Below, piece by piece: positions 7,875-53,264 of a stretch of DNA of 53,264 nucleotides. The stretch lies in NCBI RefSeq assembly GCF_010672065.1, contig NZ_JAAHHX010000045.1:1-53264 (forward strand). The letters are read 5' to 3'. Within the stretch, counting starts at the first letter, position 1. Each line of letters starts with the position of its first letter. Origin of the DNA: Moorena sp. SIO4A1 (GTDB lineage Bacteria; Cyanobacteriota; Cyanobacteriia; Cyanobacteriales; Coleofasciculaceae). Below the pieces are notes generated by a model. The model was not told the origin of the DNA and ran no database searches. It saw only the letters and a list, made by a program, of their open reading frames with translations. The position numbers were made by a program, and so were the translations under genes.

Positions 7875-8287
7875 TCTGGCTAGTTAAGGGAGTCTTACTA
7901 TTATAGCGCTACGCGCAAGTCAGCAAGGTTCTTGCGTCAGAAGTCAAAAGTAAGCTATGACTAAGTTTGCTGAGTTTAGGAATGTCAAACACCTTAATGG
8001 GTAGTGCTATACTAACTATCACTAAATGGTAGGCCATGCTTGGCTTCGCTGCACTAAAGCGCTTCGGATTGGCTGAAAAATTGGTCTATCTAAAGCCATT
8101 TCAAGGATACTGCCGTGGGATCCCCTAGCCACTGACGAGATCGCGCTGCACTATGATCGTGTCAACAAGGCGTGAGGTTTTTCCCGAGACTTGAGAAATT
8201 TTGCATCTACTTGATAGACTGGGGCATCCCATGAGATAATAGTAAATTGTGTTTAATTGTAATATTTGAGTTCTTAGAAAAAAAACT

Positions 8288-8482
8288 ATGGCAAGTAAGA
8301 AAGGTGTCCGAATCGTTATTACTCTAGAATGTACGGAATGTCGCAGTAACTCCAATAAGCGTTCGGCTGGTGTTTCCCGCTATACCACTAGGAAGAATCG
8401 CCGTAACACAACATCACGTCTGGAACTGAAGAAATTTTGCCCCAATTGCAACAGGCACACAATTCACAAAGAAATCAAGTAG
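8288..8482 (+). CDS. rpmG: 50S ribosomal protein L33
   Basis: [21 protein letters not shown].. with CxxC..CxxC zinc ribbon. Confidence 0.95.
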
Positions 8483-8603
8483 ATTTGGTCCTTGGTCATT
8501 TGTGAATTGAATTTTTTAATTCAAAATGGACTATTGACAAAGAACAAATGACTATAATCATTAACCAGTAACCCAAATAACCAATAACCAATCATAACCA
8601 ATC

Positions 8604-8819
8604 ATGACTTACTTTCGTAAACGTCTCTCTCCGATCAAACCCGATGAACCGATTGACTATAAAGATGTTGAGTTGCTGCGCAAGTTTATCACTGAACGGG
8701 GAAAAATTTTACCCCGCCGCATTACTAATCTAACGACTCAACAACAACGAAAGCTAACCACAGCCATTAAGCGAGCAAGGTTCTTGGCTTTGCTACCCTA
8801 TATTAATAAAGAAGGTTAA
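8604..8819 (+). CDS. rpsR: 30S ribosomal protein S18
   Basis: 71 aa, ..[43 protein letters not shown]. Confidence 0.95.
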
Positions 8820-9025
8820 GGTGAACAATCACGGTCTTCCTCTGGGATATTTCCCGTGTGAAGAATGAAATATCAAATAATAAGGATGAAGGATGAAGTA
8901 TGAAGTATGAAATGGGGTGATCGATGGCTCAGGCGTGGGATGCAGTGGCCTCATGGGGAGGCCACTCGCGCTCTGCATGGCTGACATGGTTAACTAAAAA
9001 CTTGCGACTCAACCAGGAGTTACAC

Positions 9026-9097
9026 TGACCACTGAGCGCTGACCACTGAGCGCTGACAACTTCAGACTTCAGACTTCAGACTTCAGACTTTAGACTT
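9026..9097. repeat. Short tandem repeats: 2 x TGACCACTGAGCGC then 5 x heptamer CAGACTT (STRR-like)
   Basis: Direct reading. Confidence 0.9.
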
Positions 9098-9187
9098 GAC
9101 CCCCTCTGCTGAGTTGGGCATCTCAACAACACAGGATAGACTGGGGGGAGGTGGATTTGGTAAACGCTACCCGGGTTATCAGAACTG

Positions 9188-11245
9188 GTGGAAAAGGGAA
9201 CACTAATCGAATTTCGCTTACAAGGAGAACGCCATCTCGCCGTTGTCGATCGTCCAGAGGGCAAGAACCACTTGATTGCTTTGGATCAACGGGGGAAACT
9301 GCACAAGCTCCATCCTCGACAAGTCACCTACACAGTGGCGGATTCTACTTATAAGCCATCACAAATACCAGAGTTTCTTGCTCGAGTACAACCGTATCTA
9401 GACCCAGATAGCTTAGAATTAGCCTGGGAATTACTGGTGGAAGAAGGAGAGGCGGTTACCTGTGCTGACATGGCACAGTTATTATTTTCTGAGCAAAGTC
9501 CACCCCAGTGCTATGCTGCACACTGTATTCTGTTTGAAGACAAAATCTATTTTAAACACAAAGCACAAACCTATGAACCCCGCTCCGCTAGCATGGTGGC
9601 TGAAATCAAGCATCAACTGGCAGCGGCTCAATCAAAGCACCAGGAACAAGAAGAATTTTTGAAGCGAGTACAACAAAAGCTAGGGGGTGAGGAAGTAGAG
9701 TGGCTTGATAGCGATCGCACTCGCTTTGATGCTCTAGAACGGTTCGTTAGTGAACCAGATAAACCCTCTCGTGCAGTTCAGGAAACTCTGGAAGCAGTAA
9801 AACGCCATCAAAACCCAGAAAATGCCTTCAATTTGTTGGTAAATCTGGGTTTGTGGCATCCTCACCAAAAGTACTTGCTGCGTCATAAAATCCCAACTCA
9901 ATTTCGTCGTGAGGTACTCGAATTGACCCAGCAATACCTGGCAAATCCTCCTACTGACCCAGATTCAGATCGCTTGGATTTAACTCATCTGAAACTCTAC
10001 ACCATAGATGATGAAAGTACCCAAGAAATAGATGATGGGTTGAGTATAGAAGATCTAGAGGATGGCACTCAGCGTCTGTGGATTCACATCGCTGACCCAA
10101 CCCGCTTGGTAATGCCAGGGGATAACCTTGACCTAGAAGCAAGACGGCGTAGTACCACCATATATCTACCCACAGGCATGATTCCCATGTTCCCATCGGA
10201 ACTGGCAACTGGTCCAATGAGTTTGGTTCAAGGTCAAGTCTGTGGCGCACTCAGTTTTGGCGTGATATTGGATGAAGATGGTGCCATCTATGACTATCAG
10301 ATTCGCCCCAGCTTGATTAAACCCACCTATCGCCTGACTTATGAAGATGTAGATGAAATGTTGCAGTTAGGGGTACAGGCAGAAACAGAACTGTTTGCGA
10401 TCGCTAACTCGGCTGTGCGTCGGCAAAAGTGGCGCAAGTCTCAAGGGGCGATTAGTATCCATATGCCAGAGTCGGTAATCAAGGTGGGAAATGATGAGCA
10501 AATTACCATTGAGGTGTTAGAAGATTCACCATCACGGCAAATGGTGGCAGAAATGATGATTCTGGCAGGTGAAGTGGCTGGACGCTATGGTCAACTGCAT
10601 CAAATTCCCCTACCATTCCGAGGACAACCCCAGCCAGAACTTCCCTCCCAAGAAGAACTGCTGCTATTGCCAGCGGGTCCAGTGCGGTTCTGTGCCATGC
10701 GTCGGTGTATGCCTAGAAGCGAAATGAGCATTACCCCAACACGCCACGCTAGTTTGGCTTTGGAAACTTACACCCAGGTAACCTCTCCCATCCGCCGCTA
10801 CACTGACTTAATGACTCATTTCCAGCTGAAAGCTCATCTACGGGGTGACCCCCTACCCTTTGAAGCTGAACATTTGCTCGAAACGATGCAGAGTGTAACC
10901 AGAACAGCTAAGGACGCTAGTGAAGTAGAACGTGATACCAACAAATATTGGGGATTGGAATATTTACGGCGTAACCCGAATCAGGTTTGGCAAGTATTAG
11001 TACTCAGTTGGTGGCGAGAAAACGAGAATAAGGGCAACATTCTCCTAGAAGAGTTAGGTCTAGAATTGCCCATGCGTTTCCAGCGTTCGGTTCAATTAGG
11101 CGATCGCTTACACGTCAAAGTCAGTCACGCTGATCCCCGTAAAGAAGTTATTCATTTTCAAGAACTAGCGAACTCAGAGGCTCAACTTGCTTTTAACTCA
11201 AAGCTAGAAGATGGCTCAGCTTCTGCTGTCAACAGGTTCGCGTAA
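9188..11245 (+). CDS. rnr: RNB-domain 3'-5' exoribonuclease (RNase II/R family)
   Basis: 685 aa. RNB catalytic motif LYTIDDESTQEIDDGLS. Conserved cyanobacterial position after rpmG-rpsR. HIP1 sites inside. Confidence 0.85.
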   Translation: MEKGTLIEFRLQGERHLAVVDRPEGKNHLIALDQRGKLHKLHPRQVTYTVADSTYKPSQIPEFLARVQPYLDPDSLELAWELLVEEGEAVTCADMAQLLFSEQSPPQCYAAHCILFEDKIYFKHKAQTYEPRSASMVAEIKHQLAAAQSKHQEQEEFLKRVQQKLGGEEVEWLDSDRTRFDALERFVSEPDKPSRAVQETLEAVKRHQNPENAFNLLVNLGLWHPHQKYLLRHKIPTQFRREVLELTQQYLANPPTDPDSDRLDLTHLKLYTIDDESTQEIDDGLSIEDLEDGTQRLWIHIADPTRLVMPGDNLDLEARRRSTTIYLPTGMIPMFPSELATGPMSLVQGQVCGALSFGVILDEDGAIYDYQIRPSLIKPTYRLTYEDVDEMLQLGVQAETELFAIANSAVRRQKWRKSQGAISIHMPESVIKVGNDEQITIEVLEDSPSRQMVAEMMILAGEVAGRYGQLHQIPLPFRGQPQPELPSQEELLLLPAGPVRFCAMRRCMPRSEMSITPTRHASLALETYTQVTSPIRRYTDLMTHFQLKAHLRGDPLPFEAEHLLETMQSVTRTAKDASEVERDTNKYWGLEYLRRNPNQVWQVLVLSWWRENENKGNILLEELGLELPMRFQRSVQLGDRLHVKVSHADPRKEVIHFQELANSEAQLAFNSKLEDGSASAVNRFA

Positions 11246-11440
11246 ATCCCTTTTCTTGTATAAGGCTCGGATGTAAGCAGTTAATGATGTGACCGAAAAG
11301 TCTGAGGGCGCAAGCCCCTGAATTCTATTCATGGGGTTAGCCCGAAAGGAATTTATTCCCTAACAGATAGCTGTAACTTTTCCTTTAAAATACCGACTAT
11401 AATAGTAAGCAAACTAAGCCAATCAAGGAGGTGATACTGG

Positions 11441-12643
11441 GTGTTGGTAATGGAATTTAAAGCGGTTTTAAAAGAGCCTCAAAAATTAGCAATAGACGAA
11501 GCAATTAGGACAGCAAGATTTGTCCGAAATAAAGTACTTCGGTACTGGATGGACAACCGTGGAGTGGGCAAGAAAGAACTGTACCGTTACAACACCCAAA
11601 TACGCGAAGAATTCAAGTTCGTAAAAGACCTTAATAGTCATGCATGCCAGGCGTCCGTTGAGAATGTAGAACGGGCTATCAAGCGGTTTTATGACAACTG
11701 CAAAAATAAGGTTCCTGGCAAAAAGGGATACCCCCGTTTTAAAAAACATTCTAGATCGGTCGAATACAAGCAGTCTGGATGGAAGTTATGGCCAGATAAA
11801 AAGTCGATAAAATTCACCGACAATAAAGGGATTGGCCAGGTTAAACTCAAAGGTACCTGGGACTTATGGCGTTTCGACCAAAAACTTATCAAGCGGGTCA
11901 GAATAGTCCAAAGGGCGGATGGTTATTACGTTCAATTCTGTGTCAAATTAGACAATCACGAACAACTAGAAGCTACCGGCTTTACTGTTGGTTTGGACGT
12001 AGGACTGAAAGAGTTTTATACGGACTCAGACGGGTATTCAGAACCCAATCCAAGGTTCTATCGAAAAAGCGAAAGACGTCTGAAATTTTATCAGCGTCGG
12101 GTTTCCCGGAAAAAGAAAGGCTCTGCTAACCGTAAGAAAGCAATTAATGATCTAGGCAGGACACACCTCAAAATAAGTAGGCAACGTGAAGAACATGCGA
12201 AGAGACTCGCGCGTTGCGTAATCCAGTCTAACGATCTGGTCGCTTACGAAGATTTGAGAATTAAAAACCTGGTAAAGAATCATTGTCTTGCCAAGTCTAT
12301 TAACGATGCTGGTTGGTATCAGTTTAGAAAATGGTTGGAGTATTTTGGCCAAAAGTTTGGCCGAATAACTGTTGCAGTTAATCCGGCTTATACAAGCCAA
12401 AATTGCTCCAGTTGTGGTGAGATGGTCAAAAAGTCATTATCGACTCGAACTCACGTTTGCCAATGTGGCTGTCAATTAGATCGAGACCACAATGCCGCCA
12501 AAAATATCCTAACTAGAGCACTGAGTACGGTGGGGCACACCGGAACTTTAATCAACGCTTGGGGAGAGGGTGCCTCTACTCTTCTTGGCTCCGGCCTGGA
12601 AAAGCAAGTAACCTCGTTGAACCAAGAATCCCCCAGCTTCTAG
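11441..12643 (+). CDS. tnpB: TnpB, IS200/IS605-family RNA-guided endonuclease (OMEGA)
   Basis: 400 aa. RuvC-I GLDVGLKE, RuvC-II VAYEDL, zinc finger CSSCG..CQCGC, RuvC-III LDRDHNAAKNIL. All catalytic residues present. No tnpA in the window. Confidence 0.9.
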   Translation: MLVMEFKAVLKEPQKLAIDEAIRTARFVRNKVLRYWMDNRGVGKKELYRYNTQIREEFKFVKDLNSHACQASVENVERAIKRFYDNCKNKVPGKKGYPRFKKHSRSVEYKQSGWKLWPDKKSIKFTDNKGIGQVKLKGTWDLWRFDQKLIKRVRIVQRADGYYVQFCVKLDNHEQLEATGFTVGLDVGLKEFYTDSDGYSEPNPRFYRKSERRLKFYQRRVSRKKKGSANRKKAINDLGRTHLKISRQREEHAKRLARCVIQSNDLVAYEDLRIKNLVKNHCLAKSINDAGWYQFRKWLEYFGQKFGRITVAVNPAYTSQNCSSCGEMVKKSLSTRTHVCQCGCQLDRDHNAAKNILTRALSTVGHTGTLINAWGEGASTLLGSGLEKQVTSLNQESPSF

Positions 12644-12730
12644 CTGTGGGGAGTGTCAAGAAACATCATATAGTGTGATTTAACAGTGTAATTTAATAGT
12701 GTTATGTAAGTATGTCAACCTACTTACCAG
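12500..12730 (+). ncRNA. candidate TnpB right-end omega/reRNA overlapping the tnpB 3' end and downstream spacer (approximate)
   Basis: Canonical position for the TnpB guide RNA. Imperfect hairpin CCCCCAGC-ttcta-GCTGTGGGG spans the stop codon (12630-12651). Three degenerate direct repeats AGTGT(G/A/T)AT(T/G)TAA lie at 12681-12720. Confidence 0.3.
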
Positions 12731-12772
12731 TTGGAAATTCACTTCTACTGTAAAACTAGAAAGCTTGCTTTG

Positions 12773-14347
12773 ATGTCTCGACATAAGTACAAGAGATTAA
12801 AACACCAAATCACCTCGGTACCGAGCCGTTGGTACTTCTGCCTATCTTTTGCTATTACCATCCTGCTGGGATGGGTTGGTGTAGCAGCAGCACAAGATAG
12901 TAACACGAATAATTTCACTAACCTGTCTACTATCTGGTTGTTAGTTTCATCTTTTCTAGTCTTTTTTATGAATGCTGGCTTTGCCATGTTAGAAGCCGGG
13001 TTATGTAGACGAAGAAATGCGACTAATGTCTTGGCTAAAAATTTGATAGTTTTCTGTATATCAGCCTTAGCATTTTGGCTAATTGGCTTTGGCTTAATGT
13101 TTGGTGATGGCATTACTTACAGTTGTGTTCCAGGAGAAAATACTAGTTTAAGTTTAGTGGGTCAAAAGGGCTTGTTTTTTAATCTTCCCTTTCCCCAATT
13201 TGGAAATCTGGGCTTTCCAGAATCAGGATTTAATTGTCTCAATCAAGATTGGTCTAATCACTCCTTTGCGTCTCTATTTTTATTTCAGTTAGTCTTTGCT
13301 GGAACTGCAGCGACTATTGTTTCAGGAGCTGTTGCTGAACGGGTAAAATTCTGGGCATTTCTCCTATTTAGTTTTTTCCTGGTTGGTTTTATCTATCCCG
13401 TAACCGGTCACTGGGTTTGGGGACACTATGGTTGGCTAGCCAAGGCGCTAAAATTTCATGATTTTGCGGGTTCAACTGTAGTCCATAGTGTTGGTGGTAT
13501 GGCTGCCTTGGTAGGTGCTTGGCTACTAAAGCCACGACAAGGTCGTTTTGGCTACAATTTAAGAACAGATAGATATGAAGGTCTCGAAACTGAAAAGTTC
13601 TCTGCCGATAATCTGGGTTTAGCCACCTTAGGCTGTTTAATTCTTTGGCTGGGCTGGTTTGGTTTTAATGGTGGCTCAGCAAAGGATCTCGATTATGTAG
13701 CCAATACCATCACAACTACCATGATGGCAGCAGCAGCTGGTGGAATATCCAGCGTATTTTTTAGTCCAATTATCCTAGGAAAACCCAGTCTAGCCTCAAT
13801 TATCAATGGCATTTTAGGTGGGTTGGTGGGAATTACAGCTTCAGCTGCTTTTGTAGATATCAGAAGTGCATTTATAATTGGCTCTATCAGCGGTATTTTT
13901 GTCCTTTTAGGCGAATATTTTATACAAGTTTGGAAAATTGACGACCCCGTAGGTTCGATTCCTGTTCACCTTTTCTGTGGATTTTGGGGAACGATTGCCT
14001 TAGGAATCTTTAGTAGCAATAGTTCTCTGTTGTACTCAGAACTTGATGTATATGACAATCCATTACTACAAGTGTTGTGTCAGTTCTTAGGCTGGCTGAT
14101 TATTATCATTGTAACAGCTCTATTGAGTTTAGTAGGTTGGCTATTAGTTAGCCTAATTTTATATTATGCAAGCCAGATCAATGAGCGGATTAGCGGCAAA
14201 CAACGCCATAGGAAACAATTACGTCAAACCCAATATTTTCAATTGGGAGAATTTATATTAACTATTTTTGAAATTGCTCGTCGAGGAATTAGGGTATCTT
14301 TGGAAGAAGAAATAAGTGGTAGCGATGGAGTTTTTTATAATCCTTAA
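12773..14347 (+). CDS. amt: ammonium transporter, Amt/MEP family
   Basis: Signal peptide WYFCLSFAITILLGWVGVAAAQ. Amt signatures ..MLEAGLCRRRN.., FAGTAATIVSGAVAERVKFWAFLLFSFF.. Start placed at ATG 12773; the track start at 12731 is TTG. Confidence 0.85.
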   Translation: MSRHKYKRLKHQITSVPSRWYFCLSFAITILLGWVGVAAAQDSNTNNFTNLSTIWLLVSSFLVFFMNAGFAMLEAGLCRRRNATNVLAKNLIVFCISALAFWLIGFGLMFGDGITYSCVPGENTSLSLVGQKGLFFNLPFPQFGNLGFPESGFNCLNQDWSNHSFASLFLFQLVFAGTAATIVSGAVAERVKFWAFLLFSFFLVGFIYPVTGHWVWGHYGWLAKALKFHDFAGSTVVHSVGGMAALVGAWLLKPRQGRFGYNLRTDRYEGLETEKFSADNLGLATLGCLILWLGWFGFNGGSAKDLDYVANTITTTMMAAAAGGISSVFFSPIILGKPSLASIINGILGGLVGITASAAFVDIRSAFIIGSISGIFVLLGEYFIQVWKIDDPVGSIPVHLFCGFWGTIALGIFSSNSSLLYSELDVYDNPLLQVLCQFLGWLIIIIVTALLSLVGWLLVSLILYYASQINERISGKQRHRKQLRQTQYFQLGEFILTIFEIARRGIRVSLEEEISGSDGVFYNP

Positions 14348-16194: not shown

Positions 16195-16480
16195 AATCTA
16201 TGCTATGCTATTCAATCTATTGAGACCGATTTGAATTAATACATCATAGCAAAGATGAGCAGTAAGCTTACCCCGGGCTGTTGGCGTAGCCTGCCGCCAG
16301 GCATAGCACGGGGGCTTTCGCCCAGGCAACAGGCGCGTTGGTTTTCAGTACCCCTAGCTAACTAACGCCCTTAGACTCCCAATTAATTGAGCCTAAGGGT
16401 TAAGGGCTGAACCTCTAGGTCTGCTTACTCTACGGAAACCCGTAGCTTCTACAACCGAGTCAATTCCCGGACGACCCCAT

Positions 16481-16555
16481 TGAGAATTAAGAATTGAGAA
16501 TTGAGAATTGAGAATTGGTATTTCTGAATTCTTGATTCTTGATTCTTGATTCTTC
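16481..16555. repeat. Two adjacent heptamer arrays (GAATTGA x4; ATTCTTG x4)
   Basis: Direct reading. Confidence 0.9.
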
Positions 16556-16840
16556 AACATTGCTCCGATTTACGTATCACTCGCCGATACTAACCTACTG
16601 GCCTAGCCGTTTTCTCCAGAGCTAAGAGTGCCTTGGCCAATTTCAACCTATATCTATTATACTTTACTGGGGTTAAAACTGCTATGCCGCTTCATCCCGG
16701 AGACGAAACCTTTGTTTCTTACGTGAGACAGCCTCTGACTTGCAGTCATGCCAAATCTGGGTCTAATAGCACCGTTAACCAAACTGGTAATATGAACAGT
16801 GTATTATATCGCAATGACTCAATTTAGGAATTGATGCCTG

Positions 16841-36974: not shown

Positions 36975-37174
36975 ACGATGAAGCATGAAGGATGAAGGAT
37001 ATACTAAGAGCCGTCAGCTGACGCGCTACTTAAAAATCTAGGCTTGCCAGCTATCAGCTGAAAGCCCCTGTAGCTTAGAGCATCAGTTCGAGCAGCCAGA
37101 TCAGTATATGCCCAACGGTTCGATAACAACCTAGGATTGATCGGATTAGCTGATTAACCAATTCATGACATGGT

Positions 37175-37218
37175 TCATACTTCATACTTCATACTTCATA
37201 CTTCATAGTTCATACTTC
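37175..37218. repeat. STRR-like heptamer array (CATACTT x6) inside the rpsH-rplF spacer
   Basis: Direct reading. Confidence 0.9.
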
Positions 37219-37239
37219 TTTAGTTAGGAGGATTATTTT

Positions 37240-45655: not shown

Positions 45656-45765
45656 AGGTTACAGGTAACAAGGTTGAAGGTCACTGAATCTGTCAATAGT
45701 CAACCTTTTAACCTGTCAACCTACTAACTGACAAGGGATCCCTGGGCTAGAACAACCTGTCAAGC

Positions 45766-45792
45766 TTGGCCAAAAGGCCACGCTACGCGAAC
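45766..45792 (-). repeat. REP-like dispersed element copy, identical to the unit expanded inside the radical SAM gene
   Basis: CTTGGCCAAAAGGCCACGCTACGCGAAC in the truA-rplM spacer. Confidence 0.7.
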
Positions 45793-45833
45793 AACGTTTC
45801 AACCCAACCGTAAACCTGATATTAATTGAACCG

Positions 45834-46283
45834 ATGGAAAAAACCCACATCCCAACTCAAGACTCAATCGAAAAAAAGTGGTACGTTGTAGACGCCACCA
45901 ACCAACGTCTAGGACGACTAGCCAGTGAAATTGCCATCATTCTGCGGGGTAAAAACAAACCTACTTACACCCCCCACATGGATACTGGAGACTTTGTGAT
46001 TGTTGTCAATGCCGAAAAAGTTATGGTCACTGGCAGAAAACGCGAACAAAAGCTATACCGCCGTCATTCCGGTCGTCCTGGGGGTATGAAGACAGAAACC
46101 TTTGCCCAATTGCAAGCACGTATACCCGAAAGAATTATCGAGAAAGCTGTCAAGGGTATGCTACCTAAAAACTCTCTGGGTCGCCAACTTTTCAAGAAGC
46201 TGAAAGTTTACACTGGTCAGACCCATCCCCATGAAGCACAACAACCCCAAGAACTAACTATTAAAACAATTCCAGGAGGCTAA
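45834..46283 (+). CDS. rplM: 50S ribosomal protein L13
   Basis: 149 aa. Confidence 0.95.
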
Positions 46284-48677: not shown

Positions 48678-49164
48678 AAAAGCCTTGCCTTATCTGGGGT
48701 TTACTCTAACTGAAGCGCAGACTAGAAAACAACAGTGTGTTGTTAGGTTTGTGTATTAAATCATAATCAAAATTTTGTCAACTAGATTTTAAGTGTTGCT
48801 TGATTTTATTGACACTCCGCGCCGAAGTAAGAACGGGGATTCTTAGTTCCTCGACATGCCTTAAAATTAGCTATCCGTCAAAGGCAATATTTAAGCCAAA
48901 TGCCCGTTAAAAACCAAACATCTAGCCTAATTTAACTAACCCCAGTGGGCTTGTCTCCCTAAGCGTTGAGTTTCCTCAGTTTCCGTGTGCCCCACGGTAC
49001 TTTTGTTTTCAAAGTTTGCTTTACTGGTTGTCGGTATCTGTTAGGATCCATACGTTTTTAATGAGGTTTTTCGCGCCTCAAGTGCTAACATCGCTTTACG
49101 TCGTGAAATTATGACAGTACCGACGAATCCTGTCTGTGTTAGGCCACTCTCTTATTCTAGCACA

Positions 49165-51051
49165 TTACTTGAAAGCCGTCCTAGAAGGACGGGGCTTGAA
49201 ACCCATCTTTTTAGTCACTCCAGAGAGACGAGTATGAAGTTGACATTGTCCAAGATAAATTTGTGCTACACTATCTCCTGGGTTCAAGCGTAGACATTCC
49301 TGAAACAGAACTGATGCCTTGGAGAAATAATGGAGATTATAAAGTACCAAGGCTTGTTCAAATTTGCTGCGAGTAATTAACTTCCCTTCTCGCAGTTGAG
49401 GTTTATCGGCATCAAAGATTTCATAAACTGTCACCATTTCCGATTTCCCCTTGACTGGTACCCGATCAATCAAGCGAATGGCATAAGCTAAGGGATTATC
49501 TAACTTCCAATAAGTATGCTGAGTGATTAATAACGGCACCCCATAACGTTTCGTTAATTCTTCTAAACGAGACGCTAAATTGACCCCATCGCTGATGACA
49601 GTGCTATCCATCCGATTTTTTCCTCCCACTGCTCCTAGCATCAACGAACCAGTATTGATGCCAATCCCAACGGTGATGGCTGGGTGTCCTGAGCTTCGCC
49701 GAGATTGATTATAGTCAGCTAGGGACTTTAGCATAGCAATTCCGGCGTTGACCGCATGATTAGCACTTTCGTTAAACAGAGCCATAATCCCATCCCCCAT
49801 GTATTTATCAATAAAGCCATGATTTCCAGTGATGGCAGATTCCATACGAGAAAGATAGGTATTGATAAATTCAAAATTTTCCTCAGGTGTCATACTTTCC
49901 GATAGGGTGCTAAAGGAGCGAATATCGGAAAATAGCACCGACATCTCTTGCTGAACATGATCCCCTAATTGAACATCGGTAATGCTTGGTTTGTTCAATA
50001 ATTGGAGAAACTGATGAGGGACAAAGCTTGCATAAGCTTGATTGACTTGGGAGAATTCCTGCTTCAAGCGTAGGTGTTCTGCTTCTGCTTTTTTGCGTTG
50101 GGTGATATCGTGAAAAGCTACGATAGCATAGGCAATGTTGCTCAATTCATTAAAGATAGGTGTTCCCCAACTTTCTATAGGGATAATTTTTTCTCCTTGG
50201 TGGATTTCCAGATCATCCAGGGTGGCGTTTTCACCTTTTAATGCCTTTACAGCAACTAATTTTTCAGCAAAGTATAGCTGATTGGTTCCGGCAACATAAA
50301 GTTGATAAACCTCTGGCATTTGCTCAGCTGTAGTTAATGGCACGACTCCCTTACCGAATAACTGCCGCGCCTTATAATTGAGGAATTCTAGTACCCCCTT
50401 ATCATTAAACACAGCCACACCCACAGGCATCCTTTCTAGAAACTGGGTCAATTGATACTGGTTCTCTAGCAGTTCGTCAACTAGGACAGTTTGCTGACGG
50501 TTTATAGCACTCAGATGCTGCCACTCTTGATTAGCTTGTTCTGGTGCTGTAGTATATTCTGAAATCTGTGCTGCTTGATCACAGATGATTTTTTCCAACT
50601 GCTGATTGAGTTCCTGAAGTTGGCGATTTTGTGCCTTCAGTGTTTCCTCAAGAAGATAAGTATGTATGGCTTCTATGACTGTCAATTTCAGGTCTTCAGA
50701 TGGACAAGGCTTCCCTAGGTAACGATATAACTTTGCATACCGAATAGCCTTGGCTGTAGCTTCCAAATCCAGATCACCCGTCAGCATAATTTTGAGAGTT
50801 TGATTAGAGAAAAAATAAGCTATGTTTAATAAGTCATCCCCTTTCAGATCAGGGATAACAGCACCAGCCAAAACTAAAGCAACTTCATACTCGTCATTGC
50901 GCAACTCTTCGACTAACTTTACAACCCCTTTACTCCCTTCAAAATTTTCAATCAGATTTTCTTTGCCGAGAGTATTACCTAGAGATATTTTTAGGTTATT
51001 GAGAACTGATGGATCATTATCAATACAAATAATTATTAATGGGTTTGTCAT
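49165..51051 (-). CDS. response-regulator receiver - PAS - class III adenylate/guanylate cyclase
   Basis: 628 aa. N-terminal receiver-like domain. PAS-like middle. Cyclase domain VLFSDIRSFSTLSE..GDGIMALF.. Confidence 0.8.
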   Translation of the reverse strand: MTNPLIIICIDNDPSVLNNLKISLGNTLGKENLIENFEGSKGVVKLVEELRNDEYEVALVLAGAVIPDLKGDDLLNIAYFFSNQTLKIMLTGDLDLEATAKAIRYAKLYRYLGKPCPSEDLKLTVIEAIHTYLLEETLKAQNRQLQELNQQLEKIICDQAAQISEYTTAPEQANQEWQHLSAINRQQTVLVDELLENQYQLTQFLERMPVGVAVFNDKGVLEFLNYKARQLFGKGVVPLTTAEQMPEVYQLYVAGTNQLYFAEKLVAVKALKGENATLDDLEIHQGEKIIPIESWGTPIFNELSNIAYAIVAFHDITQRKKAEAEHLRLKQEFSQVNQAYASFVPHQFLQLLNKPSITDVQLGDHVQQEMSVLFSDIRSFSTLSESMTPEENFEFINTYLSRMESAITGNHGFIDKYMGDGIMALFNESANHAVNAGIAMLKSLADYNQSRRSSGHPAITVGIGINTGSLMLGAVGGKNRMDSTVISDGVNLASRLEELTKRYGVPLLITQHTYWKLDNPLAYAIRLIDRVPVKGKSEMVTVYEIFDADKPQLREGKLITRSKFEQALVLYNLHYFSKASVLFQECLRLNPGDSVAQIYLGQCQLHTRLSGVTKKMGFKPRPSRTAFK

Positions 51052-51724: not shown

Positions 51725-53059
51725 GTGATGACTATTGATCAGGTACTTGACATCCTCAAAAGTGTTGAGAAAATCAAGTTAACTCCACTTCAGGAATGGA
51801 TATTGCACCAAGCCTGGGAAGGAAAAACCTATACCGATATGGCGATCGAAGCACACTATGGCCCTGAATACCTCAGAAAGACTGCCTATAAGTTGTGGCG
51901 ATTACTGGGAGACATTTTTGGCAAAGCGATCACCAAGACCAATTTCCGGAACACCCTGGAAACAACCCCGATTACTTCCTACCATCAAGAACTAATTCAG
52001 CAATATTACCGCCGTCAATGCCTACGTAAAATTGCTGAATTTCCTAGTGGAGCACTTCCCCTACCATCTCACCTTTATATAGAGCGTCCTCCGATTGAAG
52101 AGCTTTGCTATCAAGCCATTCACCAACCCGGAAGTTTACTCCGGATTACAGGACCAAAAGAGACAGGAAAAACGTCTTTGCTATTGCGAATATTAGACCA
52201 GGCAAGAGAAAAACAATATGGCAGAGTTTACCTCAATTTTAACCAAGCAGAAACCGCCATTTTAAGCAATTTAGACCGGCTATTGCGCTGGTTATGTGTT
52301 AACATCAGTTACCAACTCCAGCTTCCCCAGCAACTGGATGACTATTGGGATAAAGACCTAGGCAGTAAGGTCAGCTGTATGAGTTACTTACAAGAACATA
52401 TCCTAGAAAAAATAGACCATCCCCTAGTTTTGGCAATGGATGAAGTCCATCGGTTGTTTGAGCATACCCAAACTGCTAAAGATTTTTTACCCTTATTGCG
52501 CTCTTGGCATGAGGAATCTAAACAACTACCGCTGTGGCGAAAGCTGCGGGTTGTTGTGGTTTACTCGACAGAAATTTATGTTGCTCTGGAAACTTCCCAA
52601 TCTCCGTTTAATGTGGGATTACCGATTAAGTTACCCGAGTTTAACAAACAGCAAATCCAACAGTTAGCTCAGCTTTATAGATTACATTGGTCAAATAGTG
52701 AAGCTGCTGGCAAACTGATGGCTGTGGTGGGGGGACATCCGGGATTAGTGCAGCTTGCTCTGTATCACTTGGCTTATCATAATATTAGCCTAGAACAATT
52801 ACTCGCTGAAGCAGCTACTGCTACGGGAATTTATAGTGACTATTTGCGGCAACACTTAAGTGTACTTAGGGCAAATCCTGATTTAGCTACTACTCTTAAA
52901 CAGGTGGTTGCAGCAGATAGGGGAGTTGAGCTCGATCCAATCAGTATCTATAAGTTACAGAGTATGGGTTTGGTGAGTGTTCAGAGAAATCAAGTTACAC
53001 TCTGTTGTAATTTATATCGTCAGTATTTTTTAGAACACCTTGATATGTTGAAGGTTTAA
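51725..53059 (+). CDS. AAA-like domain protein (cyanobacterial pfam AAA_35-type ATPase with N-terminal HTH-like segment)
   Basis: 444 aa. LTPLQEWILHQAWEGKTYTDMA.. then Walker A GPKETGKTSLL, hhhhDE LVLAMDEVH. ..VVGGHPGLVQLALYHLA. Confidence 0.7.
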   Translation: MMTIDQVLDILKSVEKIKLTPLQEWILHQAWEGKTYTDMAIEAHYGPEYLRKTAYKLWRLLGDIFGKAITKTNFRNTLETTPITSYHQELIQQYYRRQCLRKIAEFPSGALPLPSHLYIERPPIEELCYQAIHQPGSLLRITGPKETGKTSLLLRILDQAREKQYGRVYLNFNQAETAILSNLDRLLRWLCVNISYQLQLPQQLDDYWDKDLGSKVSCMSYLQEHILEKIDHPLVLAMDEVHRLFEHTQTAKDFLPLLRSWHEESKQLPLWRKLRVVVVYSTEIYVALETSQSPFNVGLPIKLPEFNKQQIQQLAQLYRLHWSNSEAAGKLMAVVGGHPGLVQLALYHLAYHNISLEQLLAEAATATGIYSDYLRQHLSVLRANPDLATTLKQVVAADRGVELDPISIYKLQSMGLVSVQRNQVTLCCNLYRQYFLEHLDMLKV

Positions 53060-53264
53060 GGTTTAAGGTTTAATGTTGAAGGTTTAATGTTGAAGGTTTA
53101 ATGTTGAAGGTTTAATGTTGAAGGTTGTCTGTCAGAATTAATTCTTAATTCTTAATTCTTAATTCTTAATTCTTAATTCTTAATTCTTAATTCTTAATTC
53201 TTAATTCTTAATTCTTAATTCTTAATTCTTAATTCTTAATTCTTAATTCTTAATTCTTAATTCT
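53051..53264. repeat. Heptamer-based tandem arrays (AAGGTTT / AATGTTG units, then AATTCTT x about 18) starting in the stop codon of the AAA-like gene and running off the window
   Basis: Direct reading. Confidence 0.95.

What the first reader, a model, noticed from the sequence alone, without database searches (positions are those of the whole stretch)
11246..12772. Catalytically intact standalone TnpB inserted 130 bp upstream of the ammonium transporter gene
TnpB retains RuvC D/E/D and the zinc finger. No tnpA is present. The element sits between rnr and amt, so its right end, the presumed omega-RNA (hairpin across the stop codon, 12630-12651) and the downstream guide occupy what should be the amt promoter. 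A weak NtcA-like box GTA-N8-AAC (12706-12719) with a possible -10 TACTGT (12746-12751) lies between them. If real, the guide region and nitrogen-regulated promoter overlap, so amt expression and TnpB RNA production could be coupled.
Basis: partly seen in the sequence, partly recalled or inferred. Interest (0 to 1): 0.55.

Follow-up and report, generated by a model that had tools for sequence, protein, structure and literature searches.

The report
TnpB-only insertion sequence upstream of amt
A small, ordinary mobile element that carries an RNA-guided nuclease gene (TnpB) and its guide RNA has landed between two genes of a Moorena cyanobacterium, and it leaves the neighbouring ammonium-transporter promoter intact.

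Summary
Window 11294-12659 (1366 bp) is a discrete, non-autonomous IS200/IS605-family element. Two sister Moorena genomes have the uninterrupted rnr-amt spacer, joined exactly at GTGAC|GAAACATC with no target duplication.

The element carries:
- one gene, tnpB (11441-12643), with the RuvC D/E/D triad and the zinc finger intact;
- matching subterminal palindromes at both ends;
- a structured omega-RNA scaffold (12513-12659), followed by a 16-nt guide (12660-12675).

A covariance model built from 56 relatives, without the window, hits the scaffold at 119 bits (E about 3e-28). In that alignment 25 of 44 pairs show compensatory changes. The flank motif across relatives is T-T-G/T-A-C.

The regulatory idea is only partly supported. 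A canonical NtcA promoter lies 4 nt further on: GTA-N8-TAC at 12710-12723, then 22 nt, then TACTGT. It is the only such composite in the 53 kb, is ancestral, and starts 50 nt past the element and 34 nt past the guide. Guide and promoter therefore do not overlap, and coupling by read-through remains untested.

Verdict: a new member of a known kind, of low interest.

The parts
9188..11245 (+). Upstream flanking gene: RNase II family exoribonuclease (rnr/rnb)
   Evidence: Pfam RNB, CSD_RNase_II, wH_RNase_II and HTH_RNase_II. It is 97-98% identical to the Moorena orthologues L001-L003.
11289..11293 (+). Transposon-adjacent motif (TAM, the target motif) GTGAC, immediately 5' of the left end. It belongs to the flank.
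   Evidence: It is present in the empty sites of L001 and L002. In 50 relatives the flank positions read -5 T 29/50, -4 T 45/50 and -3 G 36 / T 12, then AC. Positions -8 to -6 are random.
11294..12659 (+). The insertion sequence itself: 1366 bp, a non-autonomous tnpB-only IS200/IS605-family element, with no target-site duplication
   Evidence: Window 9000-11298 and 12654/12672-15000 are contiguous in L001 and L002. The junctions were read base by base. Similarity among 70 relatives stops exactly after GAGTGTCAA.
11306..11336 (+). Left-end subterminal palindromes: GGGC-GCAA-GCCC (11306-11317) and CCCCTGAATTCTATTCATGGGG (11315-11336)
   Evidence: Read. The single-stranded DNA fold has z = -2.9. 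The second palindrome has the same architecture as the right-end hairpin: a CCCC clamp, a 5-bp stem, a TCT loop and a bulged T.
11398..11403 (+). Putative tnpB promoter -10 box TATAAT inside the left end. The Shine-Dalgarno sequence AAGGAGG lies at 11425-11431.
   Evidence: Read. Relatives carry TAnAAT-like hexamers at a similar distance from their start codon. This is a consensus match only.
11441..12643 (+). tnpB, 400 aa, GTG start. RuvC residues D186, E270 and D349. Zinc-finger cysteines C322, C325, C340 and C342.
   Evidence: dN/dS against three Moorena paralogues is 0.02-0.03 upstream of the omega-RNA overlap.
12513..12659 (+). Omega-RNA (reRNA) scaffold, overlapping the last 131 nt of the tnpB reading frame (12513-12643) and the right end
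   Evidence: Covariance model R1, built without the window, gives 119.4 bits, E = 2.9e-28, over the full model length. In the alignment 96.3% of cells pair, against 27-51% in slid controls, and 25/44 pairs have double changes. Synonymous divergence drops 5-10 fold here.
12630..12651 (+). Right-end subterminal hairpin, which is also the last omega-RNA helix. It spans the TAG stop codon (12641-12643).
   Evidence: (helix 6: 6 of 8 pairs have compensatory changes).
12660..12675 (+). Predicted 16-nt guide GAAACATCATATAGTG, the first flank bases after the right end
   Evidence: The position follows the ISDra2 rule (PMC8612924). It matches 16/16 next to GTGAC in the empty sites of L001 and L002. The window holds no other match with 3 or fewer mismatches. 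The length of 16 nt is assumed from ISDra2.
12672..12702 (+). 13-nt tandem repeat (AGTGTAATTTAAC, 2.4 copies) in the ancestral spacer, between the guide and the NtcA box
   Evidence: TRF. L002 has one more unit. Its function is unknown.
12710..12751 (+). Predicted NtcA-activated amt promoter: GTATGTCAACCTAC (12710-12723), 22 nt, then the -10 box TACTGT (12746-12751). The predicted transcription start is about 12758.
   Evidence: It is the only GTAN8TAC-N22-TAN3T in the window on either strand, against 0.23 expected. It is conserved in L001, L002 and L164 and absent from L003. The geometry follows PMC3898017 and PMC5714215.
12773..14347 (+). Downstream flanking gene: ammonium transporter (amt)
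   Evidence: Pfam Ammonium_transp at 351 bits. NCBIfam TIGR00836 at 345.7 bits against a cutoff of 343.3. The ATG at 12773 is taken as the start because it is the first ATG of the ORF and is conserved in L001-L003.

Best explanation
Window 11294-12659 is a non-autonomous, tnpB-only member of the IS200/IS605 family. It integrated, without target duplication, immediately 3' of a GTGAC motif in the 161-bp rnr-amt spacer of one Moorena lineage.

Shown here:
- the exact ends;
- empty sites in sister genomes;
- matching left- and right-end subterminal palindromes;
- an intact TnpB under strong purifying selection;
- a covarying omega-RNA scaffold (12513-12659) that ends at the transposon boundary.

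Inferred from ISDra2 and the Geobacillus elements:
- Transcription from the left end runs through tnpB.
- TnpB binds the 3' part of that transcript as its omega-RNA, and the first ~16 flank nucleotides (GAAACAUCAUAUAGUG) serve as the guide.
- If a Y1 TnpA supplied in trans excises the element, the scarless joint GTGAC+GAAACATCATATAGTG becomes a TAM-plus-target site. TnpB cuts it, and recombination with a sister chromosome restores the element.
- The occupied site is safe, because GTGTCAA rather than the TAM precedes the target.

The insertion point is about 99 nt upstream of the predicted amt transcription start. The canonical NtcA-type promoter (12710-12751) is untouched. The most likely consequence for amt is therefore small: the promoter stays nitrogen-regulated, perhaps with some added read-through from tnpB.
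For: - Empty sites and base-exact junctions.
- Right-end boundary, where conservation across 70 relatives stops at GAGTGTCAA.
- TAM T-T-G/T-A-C.
- Protein family and catalytic residues.
- Omega-RNA. RNAalifold finds 23/42 pairs with compensatory changes. The independent covariance model scores 119 bits, E = 2.9e-28. The controls are 0/500 shuffles and 96% paired against 27-51% slid.
- Selection: dN/dS is 0.02-0.03, and dS collapses in the RNA-overlap region.
- No tnpA in the element or the window, or beside any of about 85 related loci.
- Guide rule, TAM rule and homing model: PMC8612924 and 10.1101/2023.03.14.532601.
- NtcA promoter. It is the unique composite in the window, against 0.23 expected, and is conserved in the empty-site genomes. 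The consensus geometry and the NtcA control of amt genes come from PMC3898017 and PMC5714215.
Against: - There are no expression, RNA or cleavage data for this element. The omega-RNA 5' end and the guide length are assumed.
- The local TAM is GTGAC rather than the commonest TTGAC, so cleavage of this particular donor joint could be inefficient.
- No cognate TnpA was identified, so current mobility is unproven.
- The single-sequence fold of the omega region is not more stable than shuffles (z = -0.9). The support for structure comes from covariation only.
- The Moorena subgroup lacks one helix that most relatives have.
- The amt promoter is predicted from consensus geometry, not mapped.
Confidence: 0.85

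Rival explanations
1. The element's right end and guide overlap or replace the nitrogen-regulated amt promoter, so amt transcription and omega-RNA production are mechanistically coupled. The link would be either a shared promoter or obligatory read-through.
For: - rnr, tnpB and amt are all on the + strand, and no terminator-like site lies between the right end and amt, so tnpB/omega transcripts could run into amt.
- In M. producens 3L a different, decayed TnpB element abuts amt 21 nt before its ATG. The NtcA promoter is missing there, yet the amt ORF is intact. In that strain amt may depend on transcription coming out of the element.
Against: - In this window the guide (12660-12675) ends 34 nt before the NtcA box, and the whole promoter (12710-12751) is ancestral and unchanged.
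- A class II activator site centred at -41.5 does not need sequence beyond about -60, while the insertion is at about -99.
- No data show read-through.
Confidence: 0.1
2. An immobile fossil. The element can no longer move, or no longer makes an active ribonucleoprotein, because no cognate TnpA exists in the genome. The ORF is intact only because the insertion is recent.
For: - No Y1 transposase was found in the window or beside any of about 85 related tnpB loci.
- The copy in the same spacer of strain 3L is split into two ORFs and lacks a recognisable left end, which shows that such copies do decay in place.
Against: - The family shows dN/dS of 0.02-0.03 over saturated synonymous divergence, and both ends and the omega-RNA are intact.
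- Presence/absence polymorphism among 96-98% identical flanks argues for recent mobility.
- Moorena genomes hold very many 75-92% identical paralogues.
- Standalone tnpB elements mobilised in trans are the norm (10.1101/2023.03.14.532601).
Confidence: 0.15
3. A domesticated TnpB, acting as a TldR-like RNA-guided regulator or other host function that is fixed next to amt.
For: The only support is its position next to a regulated gene. TnpB relatives have been exapted as RNA-guided repressors (10.64898/2026.09.22.753285, listed).
Against: - The catalytic triad is intact.
- The left end, right end and TAM are canonical, and sister species have empty sites.
- The guide is simply the adjacent flank. 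It has no other match with 3 or fewer mismatches in the window, and its genomic copy is not preceded by a TAM.
Confidence: 0.02

Closest known systems
ISDra2 TnpB and its right-end RNA (reRNA/omega-RNA) from Deinococcus radiodurans (PMC8612924; structures 8exa, 8h1j)
   Same: - The proteins align over nearly their full length (E = 6e-44), with D/E/D and the zinc finger aligned.
- The RNA scaffold overlaps the 3' end of tnpB plus the right end, and the guide is the flank just past the right end.
- The target motif is 5' of the left end (TTGAT in ISDra2, TTGAC/GTGAC here).
- There is no target duplication.
   Different: - ISDra2 is autonomous (tnpA plus tnpB), whereas this element has tnpB only.
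- The TAM differs at its last positions.
- The omega-RNA sequence is unrelated enough that no Rfam family matches.
- No biochemical data exist for this element.
Non-autonomous tnpB-only IS605-family elements and PATE-like mini elements of Geobacillus stearothermophilus (Meers et al., 10.1101/2023.03.14.532601)
   Same: - Standalone tnpB with an overlapping, covarying omega-RNA.
- Presumed mobilisation by TnpA in trans.
- Protein-less derivatives that keep the ends and the omega-RNA. The window has one at 48809-49213.
- The homing and retention model applies directly.
   Different: The host phylum, the TAM and the end sequences differ. No cognate TnpA was identified here.
IS608 of Helicobacter pylori, the mechanistic model for peel-and-paste transposition
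   Same: - Insertion 3' of a tetranucleotide (TTAC; some relatives here also use TTAC).
- The right end finishes in TCAA. For IS608 this is recalled from my own knowledge and was not checked in a paper here.
- Subterminal imperfect palindromes at both ends on the same strand.
   Different: IS608 carries tnpA. Its palindromes and its TnpB are only distantly related.
TldR, the nuclease-dead TnpB-like RNA-guided repressors
   Same: TnpB fold and an omega-like guide RNA. They can sit next to the gene they regulate.
   Different: TldRs have lost the RuvC residues and their transposon ends, and their guides match host promoters. None of these features is seen here.

Membership tests
IS200/IS605 family insertion sequence (tnpB-only, non-autonomous group) | Encodes an OrfB/TnpB protein (OrfB_IS605 plus a C-terminal zinc-ribbon domain) | tested here: met
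   Pfam PF01385 at 84 bits and PF07282 at 78 bits. NCBIfam guided_TnpB at 283 bits against a cutoff of 100.
IS200/IS605 family insertion sequence (tnpB-only, non-autonomous group) | Inserts 3' of a conserved 4-5 nt motif without target-site duplication | tested here: met
   The empty site reads ...GTGAC|GAAACATC..., and the occupied site has the same bases on either side of 11294-12659. The flank motif T-T-G/T-A-C is seen in 50 relatives.
IS200/IS605 family insertion sequence (tnpB-only, non-autonomous group) | Subterminal imperfect palindromes at both ends on the same strand, and no terminal inverted repeats | tested here: met
   Left end 11315-11336 is CCCCTGAATTCTATTCATGGGG and right end 12630-12651 is CCCCCAGCTTCTAGCTGTGGGG. 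The termini CGAAAAG... and ...GTGTCAA are not inverted repeats.
IS200/IS605 family insertion sequence (tnpB-only, non-autonomous group) | Y1 (HUH) TnpA transposase encoded in the element (defines autonomous members) | tested here: not met
   The 1366-bp insert holds only one long ORF. A tblastn search with an IS608 TnpA probe found no hit in the window (best E = 1.5) and none next to related loci, while the same probe detected a TnpA in L060. The element is therefore filed as non-autonomous. The probe sequence was recalled from memory.
IS200/IS605 family insertion sequence (tnpB-only, non-autonomous group) | Evidence of mobility | tested here: met
   There is presence/absence polymorphism between genomes whose flanks are 94-98% identical. 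The element is also present in MAG GCA_010672005.1. Actual transposition cannot be tested here.
TnpB-omega-RNA (OMEGA) RNA-guided nuclease | Intact RuvC D-E-D triad | tested here: met
   D186/E270/D349 align with ISDra2 D191/E278/D361. The roles of D191 and E278 are given in PMC8612924. D361 as the third catalytic residue is from my own knowledge of the ISDra2 literature and was not found in that paper's text.
TnpB-omega-RNA (OMEGA) RNA-guided nuclease | Conserved structured RNA overlapping the 3' end of tnpB and ending at the right-end boundary | tested here: met
   119 bits with an independent model, 25/44 pairs with compensatory changes, 0/500 shuffles.
TnpB-omega-RNA (OMEGA) RNA-guided nuclease | Variable guide immediately 3' of the scaffold, derived from flanking DNA | tested here: met
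   Sequence identity among 70 relatives falls to background directly after GAGTGTCAA.
TnpB-omega-RNA (OMEGA) RNA-guided nuclease | RNA-guided, TAM-dependent double-strand DNA cleavage | not testable with these tools
   This needs an interference or in-vitro cleavage assay.
TldR (nuclease-dead TnpB-derived repressors) | Loss of RuvC catalytic residues and of the transposon ends, with a guide complementary to a host promoter | tested here: not met
   The triad is intact, both ends are intact and empty sites exist, and the guide equals the adjacent flank only.
Canonical NtcA-activated (class II) cyanobacterial promoter, for amt | GTA-N8-TAC box followed about 22 nt later by a TA-N3-T -10 box | tested here: met
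   12710-12723 plus 12746-12751. It is the only such composite in the window, against 0.23 expected.
Canonical NtcA-activated (class II) cyanobacterial promoter, for amt | Box centred at about -41.5 from a mapped transcription start, with NtcA binding and induction on nitrogen deprivation | not testable with these tools
   No transcription-start, ChIP or expression data exist for Moorena. The rule is taken from PMC3898017 and PMC5714215.
Any curated Rfam RNA family | Score at or above the family's gathering threshold | tested here: not met
   A cmscan of 10800-13200 at E <= 10 gave only a chance bxd_3 match at 21.6 bits against a gathering score of 70.

The most novel reading that the evidence does not exclude
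Transcription leaving TnpB elements through the omega-RNA and guide may contribute materially to amt expression in Moorena. In this strain, read-through from tnpB would add a nitrogen-independent component to an NtcA promoter. In M. producens 3L, a decayed TnpB element deleted the NtcA promoter and ends 21 nt before the amt ATG, so the element remnant would have been co-opted as the gene's only promoter or 5' leader. Two different TnpB elements in the same 161-bp spacer would then mark a recurrently used, and perhaps selected, regulatory insertion site.
Probability: 0.1. Interest if true: 0.45.

Novelty: new member of a known kind. Interest (0 to 1): 0.2.

Why it matters
There are three modest points.
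- It gives a cleanly delimited example of a cyanobacterial tnpB-only element. The ends, TAM (T-T-G/T-A-C), omega-RNA model and guide are all defined, for a clade that is hugely expanded in Moorena and is not represented in Rfam. This is useful for annotation and for mining compact nucleases.
- It locates a textbook NtcA-type promoter for a Moorena amt gene.
- Three natural alleles of one spacer exist: empty, intact element, and decayed element with the promoter deleted. Together they form a ready-made comparison for asking how TnpB elements affect neighbouring gene expression.

None of this changes current understanding of TnpB biology.

Tried and rejected
- **Rfam.** A search of 10800-13200 at a permissive threshold found no omega-RNA family. 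The RNA was therefore modelled de novo.
- **In-window repeats.** The repeat search found no second copy of the element by DNA identity. The mini element at 48809-49213 was found only by the covariance model.
- **Plasmid collection.** Only 74-78% identical Nostoc tnpB genes turned up, with no context of use.
- **Exact-protein look-ups.** Three close paralogues gave one locus each, too few for covariation. The metagenome scan supplied the diversity.
- **Single-sequence folding.** Folding of the omega region alone is not significant (z = -0.9), so it was not used as evidence.
It was rejected as being at chance frequency.
- **More distant rnr-amt spacers.** The gene adjacency exists only in Moorena.
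- **First TAM tabulation.** The first regular expression was out of register. It was replaced by an anchored version, which still mis-anchors two loci (L081, L082) and fixes the last two bases (AC) by construction.
- **Window against L164.** A base-by-base comparison failed for a bookkeeping reason and was not repeated. Identity of the two loci rests on exact protein look-ups.
- **TldR-like domestication.** This was considered and rejected.
Full report
**What is in the sequence.** The interval 11246-12772 is the space between an RNase II family gene (9188-11245) and an ammonium transporter gene. The transporter ORF is listed from 12731, but its first ATG is at 12773. Both are on the + strand. 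The interval holds one long ORF, 11441-12643 (400 aa, GTG start, preceded by AAGGAGG at 11425-11431).
- It matches Pfam OrfB_IS605 and Cas12f1-like_TNB, and NCBIfam guided_TnpB at 283 bits against a cutoff of 100.
- It aligns over almost its whole length with ISDra2 TnpB (8exa/8h1j, E = 6e-44).
- ISDra2 D191, E278 and D361 align with D186, E270 and D349 of the 400-aa protein, in the motifs GLDVG, YEDL and DRD. The zinc-finger cysteines are present as CSSC...CQC.
- D191A and E278A abolish activity in ISDra2 (PMC8612924).

**It is an insertion, and its ends can be read to the base.** The RNase II protein retrieved orthologous loci from three other Moorena genomes at 97-98% identity, so the window comes from a Moorena strain. 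In M. bouillonii PNG (L001) and a Moorena MAG (L002), window 9000-11298 and 12654/12672-15000 are contiguous. Base-level alignment gives an empty site ...GTTAATGATGTGAC|GAAACATCATATAGTG.... In the window the same bases flank 11294-12659. The insert is 1366 bp. It begins CGAAAAGTCTGAGGGCGCAAGCCCC, ends GGGGAGTGTCAA, and has no target-site duplication. An NCBI MAG (GCA_010672005.1) carries the identical RNase II and TnpB proteins in the same arrangement.

**Family anatomy.** The protein search shows a very large expansion of this TnpB clade in Moorena, with the best paralogue at 92% identity. A metagenome scan gave 80 further loci at about 65-73% identity. Three features follow from them.
- *Right end.* Nucleotide conservation among 70 distinct relatives runs to an invariant GAGTGTCAA and then drops to background. 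This fixes the right end at 12659.
- *Left flank.* Flank positions -8 to -6 are random. They are followed by T (29/50), T (45/50), G/T (36/12) and then AC, directly before the element's first base. The transposon-adjacent motif is therefore 5'-TTGAC, with variants TTTAC, ATGAC and GTGAC. The window has GTGAC (11289-11293).
- *Palindromes.* Left end 11315-11336 (CCCCTGAATTCTATTCATGGGG) and right end 12630-12651 (CCCCCAGCTTCTAGCTGTGGGG) share one architecture: a CCCC clamp, a five-pair variable stem, a TCT loop and one bulged T.

Taken together, these features fit the IS200/IS605 family: insertion 3' of a short motif, no duplication, no terminal inverted repeats, and similar subterminal hairpins on one strand.

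There is no room for tnpA in the insert. A Y1-transposase probe found none in the 53 kb, nor next to any of about 85 related tnpB loci, although it did detect one in the unrelated locus L060. The probe was the IS608 TnpA sequence recalled from memory. The element is a non-autonomous, tnpB-only member, which is the commonest state for tnpB (10.1101/2023.03.14.532601).

**The omega-RNA.** Rfam has no matching family, so the RNA was modelled from relatives.
- RNAalifold on 70 sequences predicts 42 pairs, 23 of them with compensatory double changes.
- A hand-completed six-helix structure was counted on 56 relatives without the window. It gives 96.3% of cells paired against 27-51% when partners are slid by 1-3 columns. 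There are 25 of 44 pairs, and 287 cells, with changes on both sides, against 13-32 cells in the slid controls. None of 500 shuffles reaches the observed values.
- A covariance model built from those relatives hits window 12513-12659 over its full length at 119.4 bits, E = 2.9e-28.
- The Moorena subgroup lacks one helix that the other relatives have.
- The single sequence does not fold better than shuffles (z = -0.9), so the evidence for structure is comparative.
- Codon analysis supports dual use. Against three Moorena paralogues, dN/dS is 0.02-0.03 upstream of 12513 with saturated dS (1.6-2.7). In the overlap dS falls to 0.23-0.32 while dN rises.

**How it most likely works.** By the ISDra2 rule, the RNA bound by TnpB matches the 3' end of tnpB plus the right end, and then continues about 16 nt into the flank. 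The guide here would be GAAACAUCAUAUAGUG (12660-12675). That sequence, preceded by GTGAC, is exactly what the empty sites of L001 and L002 contain. The ribonucleoprotein would therefore recognise the scarless donor joint left by excision. In the occupied site the same sequence is preceded by GTGTCAA, so it is protected. This is the homing and retention mechanism described for ISDra2 and the Geobacillus elements. For this element the anatomy is shown and the activity is inferred. No other match to the guide with three or fewer mismatches exists in the window.

**The amt promoter.** Four bases downstream there is a canonical GTA-N8-TAC (12710-12723, GTATGTCAACCTAC), one of only ten in the window. 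Exactly 22 nt after it lies TACTGT (12746-12751), which fits TA-N3-T. This composite is the only one on either strand of the window, with 0.23 expected. It is on the right strand just upstream of amt, and it is conserved in L001, L002 and L164. Canonical NtcA-activated promoters have this box centred at about -41.5 (PMC3898017). The amt genes belong to the direct NtcA regulon in Synechocystis (PMC5714215). The predicted start is about 12758, 15 nt before the ATG.

All of this DNA is ancestral spacer. The element ends 50 nt before the box, and a 16-nt guide ends 34 nt before it. The statement that the guide and the nitrogen-regulated promoter overlap is therefore not supported. The insertion is at about -99 and should leave a class II promoter functional. 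What cannot be excluded is read-through. All three genes are co-oriented, and no terminator-like site lies between 12659 and 12773.

**A second allele of the same spacer.** In M. producens 3L (L003) a different TnpB element, only 71-75% identical in DNA, lies in the same spacer.
- Its gene is split into two ORFs, and the left end is not recognisable.
- Its right end (...GGGGAGTGTCAA) abuts AAAACTAGAAAGC, 21 nt before the amt ATG.
- About 92 nt of ancestral spacer, including the NtcA promoter, are missing, yet the amt ORF is intact.

This shows that such copies decay in place. It is also the only observation that gives any weight to the idea that element-derived transcription can matter for amt.

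**Comparison with known systems and verdict.** The element works like ISDra2-type TnpB/omega-RNA systems. It meets every testable criterion for a non-autonomous IS200/IS605 member and for a TnpB-omega-RNA pair. It fails the criteria for TldR-like domesticated repressors. The gene is already annotated in public records as an RNA-guided endonuclease TnpB family protein. What is new is only the exact delimitation, the TAM and the RNA model for this cyanobacterial clade. I rate it a new member of a known kind, with interest 0.2.

Noticed in passing
window 48809-49213 (- strand): A protein-less mini derivative of the same element family (PATE-like, 405 bp). It has a GTGAC motif at 49218-49214, a left end with the family's GGGTTTCAAGCCCC / GTCCTTCTAGGAC hairpins, a TAGAAT -10-like box and the first few tnpB codons. 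An internal deletion then leads into a full omega-RNA scaffold (covariance model 69.4 bits, E = 8e-16, with a 64-nt insertion in one helix). The scaffold ends GGAGTGTCAA and is followed by the guide TAAAATCAAGCAACAC. The element forms the last codons and the stop of the 628-aa ORF 49165-51051.
   Followed up: partly
L003 8077-9667 (Moorena producens 3L): A different, decayed TnpB element occupies the same rnr-amt spacer. Its gene is split into ORFs 8203-9114 and 9331-9675, and it has no recognisable left end. Its right end lies 21 nt before the amt ATG, and the NtcA-type promoter is deleted. That makes two independent TnpB insertions in one 161-bp spacer across Moorena lineages.
   Followed up: partly
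window 12672-12702; L002 about 8115-8160: A 13-nt tandem repeat (AGTGTAATTTAAC-like) lies between the insertion site and the NtcA box. It has 2.4-3 units here and in L001, and one more unit in L002. Its first unit partly overlaps the predicted guide. Its function is unknown.
   Followed up: no
window 12718-12690 (- strand): A sigma-70-like match (TTGACA, 17 nt, TAAATT; 10 of 12) lies on the opposite strand. Its first hexamer is inside the NtcA box and it points back towards the element's right end, so a transcript from it would be antisense to the guide and omega-RNA. This is a consensus match only.
   Followed up: no
window 12513-12643: The last ~43 codons of tnpB show 5-10 fold lower synonymous divergence and higher non-synonymous divergence than the rest of the gene. 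This is consistent with the RNA structure, rather than the protein, being the constrained product there.
   Followed up: yes
alignment A3/A4, columns 38-53 of A4: The Moorena subgroup (window, L081-L083) has lost one omega-RNA helix (TTGGRTC...GAYCCGA) that is present and covarying in the other relatives. Several relatives instead carry large hairpin insertions at that same point.
   Followed up: partly
window 20723-21011 and 45713-45845: A 39-bp tandem array of 5-6 units contains the palindrome TTGGCCAAAAGGCCA. Inverted copies lie at 20679-20725 and a related pair near 45713-45845. This is a separate repeat family, unrelated to the TnpB element.
   Followed up: no
window 16476-16580, 37163-37239, 53045-53264, 8860-8914: There are long runs of 7-nt tandem repeats (TTAATTC, TTGAGAA, CATACTT, GGTTTAA and similar), resembling the short tandemly repeated repetitive sequences described in filamentous cyanobacteria.
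   Followed up: no
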